64,000 nt of DNA from Octopus sinensis. Its lineage: Eukaryota. The position numbers were made by a program. Position 1 is the stretch's first letter; each line of letters starts with the position of its first letter. This document shows, piece after piece, positions 17,899 to 26,800 of this stretch. The DNA is taken from the NCBI RefSeq assembly GCF_006345805.1, contig NW_021832404.1:1-64000 (forward strand), read 5' to 3'.

Positions 17899-20800
17899 TT
17901 ATATATATATATACAGAAAGCGAGAGAGAAAGATAAAGAAAGAAAGAAAGGAAGGAAGGAAGGAAGAAGAAAGAAAGAAAGAGAGGATAGTTATAATCCT
18001 GACAATCGCCTCAGTACATGCTAAATCTTGGCTACGGTAGTATTCCACAATCAAAAGGAGATCCGTAAGATTTCGATTGATATAAGTAAGAACCCTATAC
18101 AACTCTAAAATCCAGTGGGATTAAAATAAACCCACAGAATGAAGAATGTGTGGGGGAGTGTCTATATGTGCGTGTGTGCGTGTGTGTGTATTTATCTATG
18201 TATGTGTGTCATTCCGTTTGTGTTAGTCTCTCACCACCGCTTGGCAACCACCGTTGGTTTGTATGCGTCCCCGTTAGTTAGCCGTTTCGGCATAAGAAGC
18301 CGACAGAATAAGTACCAAACCTTAAAAAATATATAAATATTGGGGTCGATTCGACTAAAACCTTCCAAGACAGTGTCCCAGCAAAGCCGCATTCCAATGA
18401 CTGATACACGTAAACCGTAACAGAAAAGGATGCTAAAAACAGCTGGATTTAACATTTCCAGCTGACACAGGAATAAAATTTGGCCAAAAGAAGTGTTAGT
18501 AATTGATTATTGAACGTTGAAAATCACTCCCCCAGACACAAAACGGTCCCTTTATCTCTGTCGGCACCCTCTTTGATCTCTTTCGACACCCGCTTTGATC
18601 TCTTTCGGTACTCCTCTTTCATCTCTGTCGGCACACGCTTTGATCTTTGTCAGTACTCCTCTTCGGTCACTGTCGACACCCTCTTTAATCTCTTTCGGTA
18701 CTCCTCTTTGATCTCTGTCGGCACCCTCTTTGATCTCCTTCGACACCCTCTTTGATCTCTTTCGGCAGCCTCTTTGATCTCTGATCGAAAGAGATCAAAG
18801 AGGGTGTCGACAGACATCAAAGGGGTTGCCGACAGAGACCAAAGAGGAGTACCGAAAAAGATCTCCTTCGGTACTCCTCTTTCATCTCTGCCGACATCAT
18901 CTTTGATCTTTTTCGGCACTCCTCTTTGATCTCTGTCGGCACACTCTTTGATCTATGTCGGCAACTTCTTTGATATTTTTCGGTACTCCTCTTTGATCCC
19001 TGTCGGCCCTTCTTTGATCTCTTTCGGCACCCTCTTTGATCTCTGTCGGCACTCTCTTTGATATCTGTCGGCACCTTCTTTGATCTTTTCGGTACTCCTC
19101 TTTCATCTCTTTCGGCACACTCTTTGATCTATGTCGGCACCCCATTGATCTTTTTCGGTACTCCTCTTTGGTCTCTGTCGGCAAGCTCTTTGATCTCTGT
19201 CGGCACCCTATTTGATCTCTTTCGACAACCTCTTAGATCTCTTTCGGCACTCCTTTTTCATCTCTTTCGGCATTCCTCTTTGATCTCTTTCGGCACCCTA
19301 TTTGATCTCTGTAGGCATCCTCTTTGATCTCTGTCGGTACACTATTTGATCTTTTTCGGTACTCCTCTTTGATCTCTGTCGGCACCGTCTTTGATCTATG
19401 TCGGCCCCTCTTTGATCTATTTCGGCACCTCTTTGATCTCTGTCGGCCCTTATTTAATCTCTTTCGACACCCTCTTTGATCTCTGTCGGCACCCTCTTTG
19501 ATCTCTGTCGGCACATTCTTTGATCTTTTTCGGTACTCCTCATTCATCTCTTTCGGCACTCTTTGATCTCTGTCGGCACCTCTTTGATCTTTTTCGGTAC
19601 TCCTCTTTGGTCTCTGTCGGGACCATCTTGACATTTGAACCGGTTCGATCAGGTTTGAACCAGTTTGAACCGGTTTGATCCGGTTTGAACCGGTTTGATC
19701 GGTTTGATCCGGTTTGAACCGGTTTGAACCGGATCAAACCGGTTCAAACCGGTTCTTTGATCTCTGTCGACACCGTCTTTGATCTCTGACATTCCTGACA
19801 TTCCTGACATTCCTGACATTATAGACATTCCTGACATTCCAGACATTCCTGACATTCCAGACATTCCTGACATTCCAGACATTCCTGACATTCCGGACAT
19901 TCCAGACATACGAACCGGTTCGATCAGGGTTGATCAAATTTGAACCGATTTGATCCGGTTTCAACCGGTTTGAACCGGTTTGAGCCGGTTTGATCCGGTT
20001 TGATTCGGTTTGTACCGGTTTGTCGGTACCGTCTCTGATCTTTGTCGGCACACTCTTTGATCTCTGTCGGAACCGTCTTTGATCTTTGCCGGCACACTAT
20101 TTGATCTCTGACGGCACCGTCTTTGATCTCTGTCGGCACCGTCTTTGATCTCTGTCGGTACCGACTTTGACCTCTGACATTCCTGACATTCCAAACATTG
20201 CAGACATTGCAGACATTGCAGACATTGCAGACATTGCAGACATTCCTGACATTCCGAACATTCCAGACATTCCTGACATTCCTGGCATTCGAGACATTCC
20301 TGATATTCCGAACATTCCAGACATTCCTGGCATTCAAGACATTCCAGACATTCCAGACATTCCTGACATTCCAGACATTCCTAACATTCCAGACATTCTA
20401 GACATTCCTGACATTCCCGACATTCCCGACATTCCAAACATTCCTGACATTCCTGACATTCCAGATATTCCTGACATTCCAGATATTACTGACATTCCAG
20501 ATATTCCTGACATTCCAGACATTTCAGATATTCCTGACATTCCAGACATCCCAAACATTCCAGCTATTACTGACATTCCTGACATTTATGATATTCCTGA
20601 AATTCCAGACATTCCAGACATTCCTGAAATTCCTGGCATTCGAGACATTCCTGACATTCCAGACATTCCTCGTTTATCTCTGTCGGCACCGTCTTTGATC
20701 TCTGTCGGCACCGTCTTTGATCTCTGACATTCCTGACATTCCAAACATTCATGACATTCCAGACATTCCTGACATTCCAGACATTCCTGACATTCCAGAC

Positions 20801-23800: not shown

Positions 23801-26800
23801 ACTCTTTGATCTCTGACATTCCTGACATTCCAGACATTCCTGACATTCCTGACATTCTAGACATTCCTGACATTCCTGACATCCAGACATTCCGAACATT
23901 CCAGACATTCCTGGCATTCCAGACATTCCTGACATTCCGAAAATTCCAGACATTCCTCTTTGCCGACAGAGATCAAAGAGGAGTACCGACAGAGATCAAA
24001 GAAGGTGCCGACAGAGATCAAAGAGGGTCCCCATAGAGATCAAAGAGGGTGCCCACAGAGATCAAAGAGGAGTACCGACAGAGATCAAAGAAGGTGCCGA
24101 CAAAGATCAAAGAGGTTGCCCACAGAGATCAAAGAAGGTGCCGAAAGTGATCAAAGAGGAGTTCCGAAAAAGATCGAAGAGGAGTACCGAAAGAGATCAA
24201 AGAGGGTACCGACAGAGATCAAAGAGGTACCGAAAGAGATCAAAGAGGACTACCGAAAGAGATCAAAGAATGTGCCGACAGAGATTAAAGAGGGTGCCGA
24301 AAGAGATCAAAGAAGGGCCGACAGAGATCAAAGAGGAGTACCGAAAATGATCAAAGCTGGTGTCTCTGTCGGCACCTCTGATCTCTGACATTCCTCACAT
24401 TATAAACATTCTTGACATTACAGGCATTCCTGACATTCCAGCCATTCCTGACATTACAGACATTCCTGACATTCCAGACATTCCTGACATTCCAGACATT
24501 CCTGACATTCCGAAAATTCCAGACATTCCTGACATTACTGGCTTTCCAGACATTCCTGACATTCCAGACATTCCTGACATTCCTGACATTCCTGACATTC
24601 CAGTCATTCCTGACATTCCACACATTCCTGACATTCCAGACATTTCAGATATTACTGACATTCCAGACATTCCAGAAATCCTGATATTCCTGACATTCCT
24701 GACGTTCCAAACATTCCAGACATTCCTGACATTCCTGACATTCCTGACATTTGAACCGGTTCGATATGGCTTGATCCAGGTTGAACCGGTTTGATCTGGT
24801 TTGATCCGGTTTGAACCGATTTGATCTGGTTTGAACCGGTTTGATACGGTTTGAACCGGTTTGATCCGGTTTGATCCGTTTCAACCGGTTTGATCCGGTT
24901 TCAACCGGTTTGATCCGGTTTAATCTGGTTTATCGGCACCGTCTTTGATCTTTGTCGGCACAAACGTTGATCTCTGACATTTCTGACATTCCAGACATTC
25001 CTGACATTTCAGACATTCCTGACATTCCAGACATTCCTTACATTCCAGACATTCCCGACATTCAAGACATTCCAGACATTCCAGACATTCCTGACATTCC
25101 TGACATTCCAAACATTCCTGACATTCTAGTCATTCCTGACATTCCACACATTCCTGACATTCCAGACATTTCAGATATTACTGACATTCCAGACATTTTA
25201 GAAATCCTGACATTCCTGACATTCCAAACATTCCAGACATTCCTGACATTCCTGACATTCCTGACATTTGAACCGGTTCGTTATGGCTTGATCCAGGTTG
25301 AACCGGTTTGATCTGGTTTGATCCGGTTTGAACCGATTTGATCTGGTTTGAACCGGCTTGATCCGGTTTGATCCGGTTTCAACCGGTTTGATCCGGTTTA
25401 ATCCGGTTTATCAGCACCGTCTTTGATCTTTGTCGGCACAAACTTTGATCTCTGACATTTCTGACATTCCAGACATTCCTGACATTTCAGACATTCCTGA
25501 CATTCCAGACATTCCTTACATTCCAGACATTCCCGACATTCCCGACATTCCCGACATTCCAGACATTCCTGACATTCCAGACATTCCTGACATTCCTGAC
25601 ATTCCAAACATTCCTGATATTCTAGACATTCCTGATATTCCAGACATTCCTGACATTCCAGATATTCCTGACATTCCAGACATTCCAGAAATCCTGAACA
25701 TTTCAGGGAGGAGGATTTGAAGGTGAAGGTAAGGAATGGGAAGAAGGAATATTTAACATTCCAGGGAGGGGGATTTGAAGGTAAAGGGGAGGAATGGGAA
25801 GAAGGAATATTGATCATTCCAGAGAGAGGGATTTGAAGGTAAAGTGGAGGAATGGGAAGAAGGAATATTGAACATTCCAGAGAGGGGGATTTGAAGGTAA
25901 AGGGGAGGAAAGGGAAGAAGGAATATTGAACATTGCATAGGGGGGGTTTGAAGGTGAAGGGGAGGAATGGGAAGAAGGAATACGGAACATTCCAGAGAGG
26001 GAGATTTCAAGGTAAATTGAGGAATTGGAAGGAGGAATATTGAACATTCCAGAGAAAGGGATTTAAAGAGAAAGGGGAGGAATGGGAAGAAGGAATATTG
26101 AACATTCCAGAGAGGGGGATTTGAAGGTAAAGGGGAGGAATGGGAAGAAGGAATATTGAACATTCCAGGGAGGAGGATTTGATGGTGAAGTTAAGGAATG
26201 GGAAGAAGGATTATTGAACATTCCAGAGAGGGGGATTTGAAGGGAAGGGGGAGGAGTGGGAAGATGGAATATTAAACATTCCAGAGAGGGGGATTTGAAG
26301 GTGAAGGGGAGGAAGGGGAGGAAGGAACATTGAACATTGCAGAGAGGGGGATTTGAAGATGAAGGGGAGGAATGGGAAGAAGGAATATTGAACATTCCAG
26401 AGAGAGGGATTTGAAGGTAAAGGGGAGGAATGGGAAGAAGGAATATTGAACATTCCAGAGAGGGGGATTTAAAGGTGAAAGGGAGGAAGGGGTGGAAGGA
26501 ATATTGAACATTCCAGAGAGGGGGATTTTGAAGGGGAAGGGGAGGAAGGGGAGGAAGGGATACTGAACATTCCAGAGAGGGGGATTTGAAAGTGATCGTG
26601 AGGAAGGGGAGGAAGGAATATTGAACTTCCATCCGGGAGGGGGATTTGAAGGTGAAGGGGAGGAAGTGGAGAATGGAATACTTTACATTCCAGAGAGGGG
26701 GAATTGAAGGTAAAGGGGAGGAATGGGAAGAAGAGAATATTTAACCTTCAAGAGAGGGGGATTTGAAGGTGAAGGTAAGGAATGGGAGAAAGGAATATTG

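What the first reader, a model, noticed from the sequence alone, without database searches (positions are those of the whole stretch)
18548..25697. Composite satellite built from three arrays of signalling-TF binding sites (TCF+Helper, Grainyhead/CP2, TEAD)
Seen: 7 kb made of only three short units. Known: CTTTGATC is the TCF/LEF HMG site, AACCGGTT the Grainyhead/TFCP2 site, and RCATTCCWGR the TEAD site. Each unit matches one of these. The 9-bp and 10-bp periods equal the known cooperative spacings for TEAD and CP2, and in A a Helper-like RCCG lies beside every HMG site. Major polymorphisms fall on degenerate motif positions (W in TEAD, R in RCCG). Inference: this may be a natural multimerised Wnt/Hippo/Grainyhead response platform (super-enhancer, TF sink or nuclear-body seed) at the edge of a large satellite. 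By my rough length-based estimate it holds on the order of 100+ A, 100+ B and 300 C sites.
Basis: partly seen in the sequence, partly recalled or inferred. Interest (0 to 1): 0.9.

Follow-up and report, generated by a model that had tools for sequence, protein, structure and literature searches.

The report
Compound satellite carrying transcription-factor consensus sites
A 7-kb stretch at the edge of a large satellite is built of three short repeat units that do match TCF, Grainyhead/CP2 and TEAD consensus sites, but it looks like a block-duplicated satellite rather than a proven signalling platform.

Summary
Window 18550-25705 consists almost only of three units: A (22/23 bp, about 123 units, half of them inverted), B (10 bp, about 130-136) and C (9 bp, about 327). 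Only 164 of 7,171 bases are unassigned. The motif matches are real against published consensus sequences: CTTTGWWS 98 times, AACCGGTT 39 times, and the TEAD double motif at its optimal 2-bp spacing 168 times.

The locus is not three independent arrays. It is about 30 interleaved blocks forming a 1.06-1.18 kb module, copied three times at 96-97.8% identity. C shares a 10-mer with the adjacent 58-bp satellite of at least 38 kb, which itself carries 439 TEAD-type sites.

Tests for selection are weak or negative:
- Rare substitutions in A are uniform: 4.3% in the core against 4.7% outside.
- The B, C and 58-mer cores are not protected.
- The long Helper consensus is absent.
- Matches of this stringency are expected by chance for A and C.

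Best reading: an ordinary compound satellite that could bind TEAD, as human HSat3 does. Function is untested. Interest is about 0.35.

The parts
18550..19626 (+). First A array (22/23-bp unit CTTTGATCTCTGTCGGCACCCT). About 47 units, 74% matches. Contains a 3-unit inversion at 18777-18844.
   Evidence: Fold-back junctions of the inversion: arms 18740-18782/18790-18832 and 18827-18861/18862-18896.
19634..20166 (+). First mixed stretch: B (12 units), 1 A, C (13), B (11), A (6).
20169..20670 (+). Longest C block (56 units of GACATTCCW).
20671..21714 (+). A pair (2 units), two [C | B | about 2 A] modules, then a trailing C block (31 units, 21436-21714). TRF reports a 419-bp period over 20727-21640.
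   Evidence: The B+2A blocks 20829-21016 and 21219-21435 are 95.7% identical.
21715..22778 (.). Higher-order module, copy 1: inverted A array (22 units), linker with one forward A, C (21), B (18), about 2 A, C (15).
   Evidence: 97.0% identical to copy 2 and 96.0% to copy 3.
22779..23957 (.). Higher-order module, copy 2 (1,179 bp): inverted A (18), linker, C (40), B (21), about 2 A, C (16).
   Evidence: 97.8% identical to copy 3 over 1,158 aligned columns; sub-blocks 99.5% and 99.7%.
23958..25262 (.). Higher-order module, copy 3: inverted A (18), linker, C (40), B (19), about 2 A, C (32).
25267..25705 (+). Last B block (14 units), about 2 A, and the last C block (28 units). The last C block passes in register into the 58-bp satellite.
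   Evidence: The B+2A block is 97.3% identical to that of copy 3.
25695..63983 (+). Neighbouring 58-bp satellite with 116/174-bp higher-order periods. About 670 units, running to the window end. The + strand is 75.8% purine. It carries RMATTCCWD 439 times on + and shares the 10-mer ACATTCCAGA with the C dimer.

Best explanation
This is a compound (higher-order) satellite at the boundary of a large 58-bp satellite.

Short units arose and spread by replication slippage, unequal crossing-over and fold-back template switching. Whole multi-array modules of about 1.1-1.2 kb were then duplicated in tandem. The TEAD-type core of unit C was inherited from the neighbouring 58-bp satellite. Units A and B share TTTGATC...CGG and are probably related by internal deletion.

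The units match TCF, Grainyhead/CP2 and TEAD consensus sites, so the DNA could physically bind these conserved factors wherever chromatin allows. For TEAD this is most likely, as in human HSat3. The site numbers, however, come from block amplification, and I see no convincing sign that the sites are kept by selection as a Wnt/Hippo/Grainyhead response platform.

Shown: the anatomy, the higher-order duplication, the motif content and the substitution patterns. Inferred: the mode of origin, the binding capacity and the lack of a selected signalling function.
For: **Higher-order structure**
- Three tandem modules are 96.0-97.8% identical, with sub-blocks at 99.5-99.7%. Neighbouring units within arrays match only 74-88%.
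- Six B blocks carry the same ordered string of variant units. The B+2A block recurs at 95.7-98.6% identity.

**Descent of the units**
- The C dimer and the 58-mer share the 10-mer ACATTCCAGA (2 of 500 shuffles reach this length). A and B share TTTGATC (13 and 9 of 500).
- The last C units pass in register into the 58-bp satellite.
- The 58-bp satellite holds RMATTCCWD 439 times on + and 10 times on -.

**Rearrangement signatures**
- Fold-back junctions flank the small inversion: 25-nt perfect arms, and a 35-nt arm pair with 0 spacer.
- A+ and A- arrays form inverted arms of up to 200 nt at 86% complementarity.

**Chance controls**
- CTTTGWWS appears in 0.55-0.78% of random or shuffled 22-bp units.
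- RMATTCCWD appears in 0.16-0.53% of 9-bp units.
- Multiplied by the 828 JASPAR motifs used in PMC11526998, these rates predict more than one match of this stringency for A and for C. This is my inference and an upper bound, because the motifs are redundant.
- In that paper a single human satellite had 42 of 828 motifs enriched at least 10-fold.
- Plain microsatellites of the left flank also give dense arrays of recalled factor cores: WGATAR 18 in 308 bp, GAGAG 41 in 125 bp, TATAWAW 82+78 in 292 bp.

**Substitution tests**
- A: non-consensus letters are 39 of 906 (4.3%) in the core. They are 42 of 901 (4.7%) in the eight non-core positions without a major variant (p=0.73). The core/non-core difference vanishes within base classes (G/C p=0.14, A/T p=0.21).
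- G/C positions vary far more than A/T positions: 231 of 1,357 against 38 of 1,128.
- B: core 0.860 against non-core 0.877 mean conservation, p=0.89.
- C: G/C core 9.1% against G/C non-core 11.4%; position test p=0.17.
- 58-mer: the TEAD-type site is not protected (G/C p=0.67, A/T p=0.26). Its core C9 is among the most variable positions (0.81). The second GGAATG is lost in about 40% of units.

**Other**
- The long Helper consensus is absent: 0 matches.
- No gene signal in the 18.5-kb left flank: 16 of 109 ORFs scanned with Pfam without a family at cut-off; no Rfam family or tRNA in 1-27000.
Against: - All six positions of A with a major variant (10, 12, 17, 19, 20, 21) lie outside CTTTGATC. 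P=0.040 for random placement, or 0.091 if placed among G/C positions only. The position-level test of core against non-core gives p=0.034 (all units) and 0.055 (non-redundant set).
- In B the two major variants (positions 6 and 8) spare the first C and second G. PMC5829564 calls these the most conserved bases of the Grhl site.
- An exact AACCGGTT is rare by chance: 38-174 of 200,000 random or shuffled 10-bp units.
- C reproduces exactly the optimal 2-bp spacing of the cooperative Tead double motif: 168 instances.
- In tandem, A places a 6-of-7 match to GCCGCCR (GCCGACA, 20+28 copies) 5 bp from the next HMG-type site. This may correspond to a favoured arrangement described in PMC4154663. I could not check this against its figure.
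- Human HSat3 shows that a satellite with this core does bind endogenous TEAD1 and recruits YAP.
- CpG observed/expected in the composite (0.75) equals that of the flank (0.72), so there is no extra CpG decay.
- Chromatin state, occupancy and genome-wide distribution are unknown.
Confidence: 0.65

Rival explanations
1. One reading: a satellite-borne binding platform or sink. TEAD/Scalloped, and perhaps TCF and Grainyhead/CP2, occupy the C, A and B blocks and the 58-bp satellite by motif recognition. They concentrate or titrate these factors and their co-activators, as HSat3 does for TEAD/YAP in human cells.
For: - Motif quality: 209 RMATTCCWD, 168 double motifs at the optimal spacing, 98 CTTTGWWS, 39 AACCGGTT.
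- The published consensus sequences are matched.
- Cooperative TEAD binding at tandem sites is documented.
- Precedent: PMC11526998.
- There is a weak avoidance of the HMG core by the major variants of A (p=0.034-0.09).
- The B variants spare the two key bases of the Grhl site.
Against: - There is no occupancy or chromatin data.
- Rare substitutions do not avoid the cores.
- Site numbers are inflated by duplication of modules that are 96-99.7% identical.
- The long Helper consensus is absent.
- The CP2 spacing argument carries no information.
- Only 7 kb is seen here, against megabases for HSat3.
- A motif match of this stringency is expected by chance for A and C.
Confidence: 0.17
2. Amplified regulatory DNA of a mobile element. 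The three units descend from short tandem enhancer or internal repeats of a transposon or retroelement that used TEAD, TCF and Grainyhead sites for its own expression. They were later expanded into a satellite.
For: - The left flank is repeat-rich and without recognised genes.
- From recall only, satellites often arise from internal repeats of mobile elements. The review PMC12628747 appears in the listing by title alone.
- The fixed order C-B-A in seven modules would fit a structured ancestral element.
Against: - No transposase, reverse-transcriptase or other mobile-element domain was found in the 16 ORFs scanned.
- No terminal repeats were identified.
- C is explained more simply by descent from the adjacent 58-bp satellite.
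- No eukaryotic repeat library or genome was available to search.
Confidence: 0.1
3. Assembly artefact: a mis-joined or collapsed long-read assembly of satellite DNA produced the interleaving and the inversions.
For: Satellite boundaries and inverted arrays are error-prone in assemblies (general knowledge). Inversions and near-identical modules are present.
Against: - The module copies differ by consistent substitutions and unit-number changes rather than being identical.
- Junction sequences recur in the same form seven times.
- There are no N.
- The unit arrays themselves cannot be artefacts.
Confidence: 0.04

Closest known systems
Human Satellite 3 as a TEAD/YAP binding platform (PMC11526998, bioRxiv 2024/2025; abstract and sections 3, 5, 7, 10 read)
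   Same: Both are tandem satellites whose unit recreates the TEAD core GGAATG/CATTCC at very high density. Several other factor motifs sit in the same satellite.
   Different: - HSat3 is a 5-bp-based, megabase-scale primate satellite with demonstrated TEAD1 occupancy, YAP recruitment and an effect on rDNA transcription.
- Here the units are 9 bp and 58 bp in an unidentified, non-primate-looking genome.
- Only 7 kb plus at least 38 kb is seen.
- Occupancy and function are untested.
- The 9-bp unit gives the cooperative double-motif spacing, which a pure (GGAAT)n tract does not (my inference from its 5-bp period).
Higher-order-repeat satellites and compound satellite boundaries (general knowledge; alpha satellite is the textbook case, recalled)
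   Same: Multi-unit modules are much more alike (96-99.7%) than adjacent units (74-88%). Unit subtypes lie in fixed order. There are unit-number changes between copies, inversions, and a position at the edge of a large homogeneous array.
   Different: The module is built of three different short units (22, 10 and 9 bp) rather than diverged copies of one monomer. One unit occurs in both orientations.
Tead double motif of Hippo-responsive enhancers (PMC12008814, passages read)
   Same: C is RMATTCC-N2-RMATTCC in a continuous run, with 168 exact instances. The high-affinity example printed in that paper has the same 9-bp register.
   Different: Enhancer double motifs are single pairs embedded among other factor sites near genes. 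Here there are runs of 11-56 units inside a satellite, with no gene seen within 18.5 kb.
Wnt-responsive modules with HMG-Helper pairs of TCF/Pangolin (PMC4154663, passages; PMC4267635, abstract in the listing)
   Same: CTTTGWWS is present in about three quarters of A units, with a nearby GC-rich element containing RCCG.
   Different: The defining Helper consensus sequences (GCCGCCR, GCCGCY, RCCGCC) are absent. Only a 6-of-7 relative, GCCGACA, occurs. The fly HMG consensus SCTTTGWSWW is matched at 7 of 10 positions by my reading of the unit. There is no gene context.
Transcription factors on mouse and fly satellites (Pax3/9, Foxd3, YY1, HSF1, Ikaros and Drosophila examples, as listed in the introduction of PMC11526998)
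   Same: Satellite units that contain factor motifs and are bound by those factors.
   Different: Different factors and satellites. In those cases binding was shown experimentally.

Membership tests
Satellite DNA with higher-order repeat structure | Head-to-tail tandem units over kilobases | tested here: met
   TRF arrays of period 22, 10 and 9. 7,007 of 7,171 bases are assigned to units.
Satellite DNA with higher-order repeat structure | Multi-unit modules more alike than neighbouring units | tested here: met
   Modules are 96.0-97.8% identical, with sub-blocks at 99.5-99.7%. Within arrays the match is 74-88%. Six B blocks have the same order of variant units.
Satellite DNA with higher-order repeat structure | Genome-wide abundance and heterochromatic location | not testable with these tools
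   No eukaryotic genome or chromatin data were on hand. Only the window was examined.
HSat3-type TEAD-binding satellite platform | Dense TEAD core motif created by the repeat unit | tested here: met
   CATTCC occurs 237 times and RMATTCCWD 209 times in 7.1 kb. RMATTCCWD occurs 439+10 times in the 58-bp satellite.
HSat3-type TEAD-binding satellite platform | TEAD occupancy and co-activator recruitment in cells | not testable with these tools
   Needs CUT&RUN, DiMeLo-seq or imaging in the source organism.
HSat3-type TEAD-binding satellite platform | Very large (hundreds of kb to Mb) arrays | tested here: inconclusive
   The composite is 7.1 kb. The 58-bp satellite is at least 38.3 kb and runs off the window.
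Tead double motif | Two RMATTCC sites in direct repeat with 2-bp spacing | tested here: met
   168 exact matches to RMATTCCNNRMATTCC, all on the + strand. Definition from PMC12008814. This follows automatically for any 9-bp unit that contains RMATTCC.
TCF/Pangolin bipartite Wnt response element | HMG site CTTTGWWS | tested here: met
   48 on + and 50 on -. 87 of 123 A units hold CTTTGATC.
TCF/Pangolin bipartite Wnt response element | Helper site GCCGCCR (fly), GCCGCY or RCCGCC (vertebrate) near the HMG site | tested here: not met
   0 matches to each in the composite. Only RCCG is present (98 of 123 units; both sites in 71 of 123), along with the 6-of-7 relative GCCGACA (48 copies).
TCF/Pangolin bipartite Wnt response element | Wnt-dependent activity on a nearby gene | not testable with these tools
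   No gene was recognised in the 18.5-kb flank: 16 of 109 ORFs scanned, no Pfam family. The other side is satellite.
Grainyhead / CP2 site | Grhl consensus AACCGGTT | tested here: inconclusive
   39 exact sites for about 130-136 B units. Most units read ATCCGGTT or ATCTGGTT. The two key bases (first C, second G) are kept in 85% and 91% of units, no better than non-core positions 3 and 4 (92%, 84%).
Grainyhead / CP2 site | CP2 consensus CNRG-N5/6-CNRG | tested here: met
   68 on + and 69 on -. However, 39-43% of random or shuffled 10-bp tandem units meet it too, so it carries almost no information.

The most novel reading that the evidence does not exclude
An invertebrate-type genome carries a satellite block that works like human HSat3 but with more factors. 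Runs of optimally spaced Tead double motifs, TCF sites and Grainyhead/CP2 sites, copied as one module beside a TEAD-site-bearing 58-bp satellite, would be occupied in vivo. They would concentrate or titrate the nuclear effectors of Hippo, Wnt and epithelial programmes. If so, factor-binding satellites would be an old and recurrent feature of animal genomes rather than a primate peculiarity.
Probability: 0.12. Interest if true: 0.7.

Novelty: new member of a known kind. Interest (0 to 1): 0.35.

Why it matters
If the blocks are merely a compound satellite, the finding is a tidy example of two things. It shows how short-unit satellites bud from a neighbouring satellite and spread by module duplication. 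It also shows how easily such units mimic transcription-factor sites.

If the factors do bind, it would extend the recent HSat3-TEAD result to a distant animal and to two further pathways. It would also offer a compact 7-kb, sequence-resolved locus for testing whether satellites act as factor platforms or sinks. The C blocks are a natural concatemer of the cooperative Tead double motif, which makes the TEAD part directly testable in vitro.

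Tried and rejected
- **RNA genes.** An Rfam scan of 1-27000 at gathering thresholds found 0 families. ARAGORN on 1-27000 found 0 tRNA or tmRNA genes. There is no support for an RNA gene or a tRNA-derived element at these sensitivities.
- **Flank ORFs.** Pfam was run on 16 of the 109 stop-to-stop ORFs of at least 70 aa in 1-18600. No family reached its cut-off. The only match was Knl1_RWD_C at E=0.033, 14.8 bits against a cut-off of 27.8, which I treat as chance. 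I left the other 93 ORFs out by eye because most are translations of microsatellites.
- **Self-BLAST of the composite**. Slippage within arrays confounded it, giving many off-register hits at 75-93%. I replaced it with global alignments of defined blocks.
- **** was an unfinished stub. It only listed the files and counted N (0).
- **Invalid probabilities.** The probabilities 0.020 and 0.045 printed for the non-redundant A set are not valid. One of the seven positions below 85% there (position 5, the G of CTTTGATC) lies in the core. I do not use them.
- **Cell-level Fisher tests** (for example p=4e-17 for A). I reject them as evidence because units copied by amplification are not independent. 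I rely on the position-level tests.
- **Genome collection scans.** Two exact-pattern scans of genome contigs (bacteria and archaea only) found 0 loci. This says nothing about eukaryotes.
- **Literature for the units themselves.** Four literal strings found 0 papers.
- **Literature for satellites with TCF or Grainyhead sites.** I saw the first 12 of 72 listed papers and 12 of 185. None is on this by title. The search on cephalopod or mollusc satellites (15 of 90 listed) showed nothing relevant by title.
- **Not done.**
Other copies in the genome and orthologous arrays therefore stayed unchecked.
  - The supplements of PMC11526998 (motif tables) were not seen.

Full report
**Observation**

Tandem Repeats Finder reports arrays of period 22 (and 45/67/89), 10 (and 30) and 9 (and 18/36) from 18550 to 25702. 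A 58-bp satellite follows from 25695 to 63983 with 664.7 copies, running to the window end.

My parse of 18540-25710 into units, allowing up to two indels per unit, gives 62 forward A units, 61 inverted A units, 136 B units and 327 C units. It leaves 164 of 7,171 bases unassigned. About nine of the B calls are one-unit junction artefacts. The wrap-around alignment of the eight B blocks counts 130 B units.

Exact CTTTGATC occurs 46 times on + and 49 on -. AACCGGTT occurs 39 times and CATTCC 237 times, all on +. CTTTGATC and AACCGGTT occur nowhere else in the window. The window has no N.

**Anatomy**

The locus is not three arrays but about thirty interleaved blocks. In order:
- a 1.1-kb A array (18550-19626) containing a three-unit inversion;
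- a mixed stretch (19634-20166);
- the longest C block, 56 units (20169-20670);
- an A pair (20671-20714), two modules of the form [C | B | about two A] (20726-21435) and a trailing C block (21436-21714);
- three tandem copies of a larger module, [inverted A array of 18-22 units | linker with one forward A | C | B | about two A | C], at 21715-22778, 22779-23957 and from 23958;
- one more [B | about two A | C] module ending at 25705.

The three large modules are 96.0-97.8% identical. Sub-blocks reach 99.5% (inverted A plus linker) and 99.7% (C). Neighbouring units inside an array match only 74-88%. Six B blocks carry the same ordered string of variant units. The B+2A block recurs at 95.7-98.6% identity. 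This is the signature of a higher-order repeat. Much of the 'site count' therefore comes from recent copying of whole modules.

The W at the end of C is not free polymorphism. T and A alternate in 193 of 258 neighbour pairs, so the real unit is largely an 18-bp dimer. TRF scores the 18- and 36-bp periods higher.

The small inversion in the first A array is bounded by fold-back junctions. One has 25-nt perfect arms. Another arm pair of 35 nt abuts with no spacer. The forward and inverted A arrays form inverted arms of up to 200 nt at 86% complementarity. These point to template switching or fold-back events.

**Relationship of the units**

The C dimer shares the 10-mer ACATTCCAGA with the consensus of the adjacent 58-bp satellite; only 2 of 500 shuffles reach that length. 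A and B share TTTGATC (13 and 9 of 500).

The last C units run in register into the first 58-bp unit. The 58-bp satellite itself has RMATTCCWD 439 times on + and 10 on -, and CATTCC 460 times on + and 318 on -. The TEAD-type core of C is thus most simply inherited from the neighbouring satellite. The direction could also be the reverse. B reads like A with internal deletions (TTTGATC...CGG), and the B-to-A junctions are hybrids of the two. That is an inference.

**Motifs against published consensus sequences**

- **TCF.** The abstract of PMC4267635 (seen in the listing) gives the Wnt response element as CTTTGWWS and the Helper motif as RCCGCC. PMC4154663 (passages) gives GCCGCCR for flies. It notes the shorter RCCG from in vitro work and GCCGCY for functional human sites, and gives SCTTTGWSWW for TCF/Pangolin.
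- **Grainyhead/CP2.** PMC5829564 (passages) gives AACCGGTT for Grhl, with the first C and second G most conserved, and CNRG-N5/6-CNRG for CP2.
- **TEAD.** PMC12008814 (passages) defines the single Tead motif as RMATTCCWD and the cooperative double motif as two such sites at 2-bp spacing. A one-base insertion or deletion weakens cooperativity. PMC13247214 (passages) reports cooperative TEAD4 binding at tandem M-CAT clusters.

Counts in the composite:
- CTTTGWWS: 48 on + and 50 on -.
- RMATTCCWD: 209.
- Double motif: 168.
- CNRG-N6-CNRG: 68 on + and 69 on -.
- AACCGGTT: 39.
- GCCGCCR, GCCGCY and RCCGCC: 0 each.

Of 123 A units, 87 hold CTTTGATC, 98 hold CGGY (RCCG on the other strand) and 71 hold both. 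A 6-of-7 relative of the fly Helper, GCCGACA, occurs 48 times.

The 'Helper' claim is weak.

**Chance controls**

Tandemised random or shuffled units contain each motif at these rates:

| Unit | Motif | Units with motif, of 200,000 |
|---|---|---|
| 22 bp | CTTTGWWS | 1,103-1,563 |
| 9 bp | RMATTCCWD | 329-1,059 |
| 10 bp | AACCGGTT | 38-174 |
| 10 bp | CNRG-N6-CNRG | 78,794-85,644 |

The CP2 spacing is therefore uninformative. The double-motif spacing follows automatically from a 9-bp unit that holds RMATTCC.

I multiplied the first three rates by the 828 vertebrate JASPAR motifs used in PMC11526998. This gives about 4.6-6.5 expected matches for A, 1.4-4.4 for C and 0.16-0.72 for B. The calculation is my inference and an upper bound, because the matrices are redundant. 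With fewer effective families, B's exact palindromic match would be the unusual one.

The same paper found 42 of 828 motifs enriched at least 10-fold in one human satellite. Inside this window, ordinary microsatellites give dense arrays of cores that I recall as GATA-factor, GAGA-factor and TATA-box sites. WGATAR occurs 18 times in 308 bp and 15 times in 67 bp. GAGAG occurs 41 times in 125 bp, and TATAWAW 82+78 times in 292 bp.

A match of each unit to some well-known factor is therefore not surprising in itself.

**Do substitutions avoid the cores?**

I used positions, not cells, as the unit of the test, because amplified units are not independent.

*Unit A*
- Mean conservation is 0.957 for the 8 core positions and 0.855 for the 14 others: p=0.034 for all units and 0.055 for the non-redundant part.
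- The whole excess lies in six positions with major subtype variants (10, 12, 17, 19, 20, 21). None is in the core: P=0.040, or 0.091 if variants can fall only on G/C positions.
- Rare variants are uniform: 39 of 906 in the core against 42 of 901 in the remaining non-core positions, p=0.73.
- G/C positions vary much more than A/T positions (231 of 1,357 against 38 of 1,128), and the core is A/T-rich. Within base classes the core effect is not significant (p=0.14 and 0.21).
- In the non-redundant set the G of CTTTGATC itself drops to 84%.

*Unit B*
- There is no difference (0.860 against 0.877, p=0.89).
- The two major variants lie inside the 8-bp Grhl consensus, although they spare its two key bases.

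*Unit C*
- G/C core positions are non-consensus in 9.1% of cells, against 11.4% for the G/C non-core position.
- The position test gives p=0.17.

*58-bp satellite (670 units)*
- The TEAD-type site is not protected (G/C p=0.67, A/T p=0.26).
- Its core C at position 9 is among the most variable positions (0.81).
- The second GGAATG is lost in about 40% of units.

Overall there is a faint signal in A and none elsewhere.

**Context**

- The left 18.5 kb is very rich in microsatellites.
- It gave no Rfam family or tRNA.
- It gave no Pfam family in 16 of 109 ORFs tested.
- The right side is satellite to the window end.
- CpG observed/expected is 0.75 in the composite and 0.72 in the flank.
- I found no target gene for an enhancer reading within the window.

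**Explanation**

I read the locus as a compound, higher-order satellite at the edge of a large satellite. It was built by slippage, unequal exchange, fold-back switching and module duplication (confidence about 0.65).

Its units are good consensus sites, so binding of conserved factors is physically plausible, TEAD above all. The HSat3 work shows that endogenous TEAD1 binds a satellite with the same core by motif recognition and recruits YAP.

A modest platform or sink role therefore remains open (about 0.17). The stronger reading, with all three pathways and a selected function, I put at about 0.12. Origin from a mobile element's regulatory repeats (about 0.1) and assembly error (about 0.04) are the other rivals.

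**Novelty**

Transcription-factor motifs in satellites and their occupancy are known; examples are listed in the introduction of PMC11526998. So is higher-order satellite structure. I found no paper describing these units. By the titles of the listed papers, I found none describing satellites made of TCF or Grainyhead sites either.

I file it as a new member of a known kind. The pleasing detail is that C is a natural concatemer of the optimally spaced Tead double motif.

**Limits**

- The source organism is unknown to me.
- No eukaryotic genome, repeat library or motif-matrix library was available.
- Supplements were closed.
- The two scans of the prokaryotic genome collection found nothing, as expected.
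- I do not take the window for human.

Noticed in passing
window 25695-63983 (runs off the window end): Large 58-bp satellite of about 670 units. TRF scores its 116- and 174-bp higher-order periods best. It has strong strand asymmetry: the + strand is 75.8% purine, GC skew is about +0.74, and CpG observed/expected is 0.11. Three positions (31, 43, 48) carry major alternating variants.
   Followed up: partly
window 18740-18896: A three-unit inversion inside the first A array, bounded by hairpin-like junctions. One has 25-nt perfect inverted arms 21 nt apart. Another 35-nt arm pair has no spacer. This suggests a fold-back or template-switch event.
   Followed up: partly
window 1-18547: The left flank is unusually dense in microsatellites. 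Examples are a 1.2-kb (ACCA)n at 11695-12886, (CAA)n at 4531-4922, (ACC)n at 3695-4070 and (ATGT)n at 15616-15905, together with many (TA)n, (CA)n and (GA)n tracts. No gene, RNA family or protein domain was recognised.
   Followed up: partly
window 10762-11289 (+): A 175-aa open frame without low-complexity sequence. From recall only, part of it reminded me of the small endonuclease domain of Penelope-like retroelements. Pfam gave no family at cut-off; the only match was a chance-level Knl1_RWD_C at E=0.033.
   Followed up: partly
window 14718-14905: A 70-bp unit repeated 2.7 times at 93% identity, unrelated to the other repeats.
   Followed up: no
window about 18230-18420: The unique sequence just left of the A array reminded me, from recall only, of a dispersed short interspersed element of a marine invertebrate. 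Neither the tRNA scan nor the Rfam scan found anything there, and I could not test it against any repeat library.
   Followed up: no
window 19634-25415 (B blocks): B places a T-rich tract (TTTGAW) every 10 bp, close to the helical repeat. From general knowledge, this predicts intrinsically curved DNA, a property common in satellites. It was not computed here.
   Followed up: no
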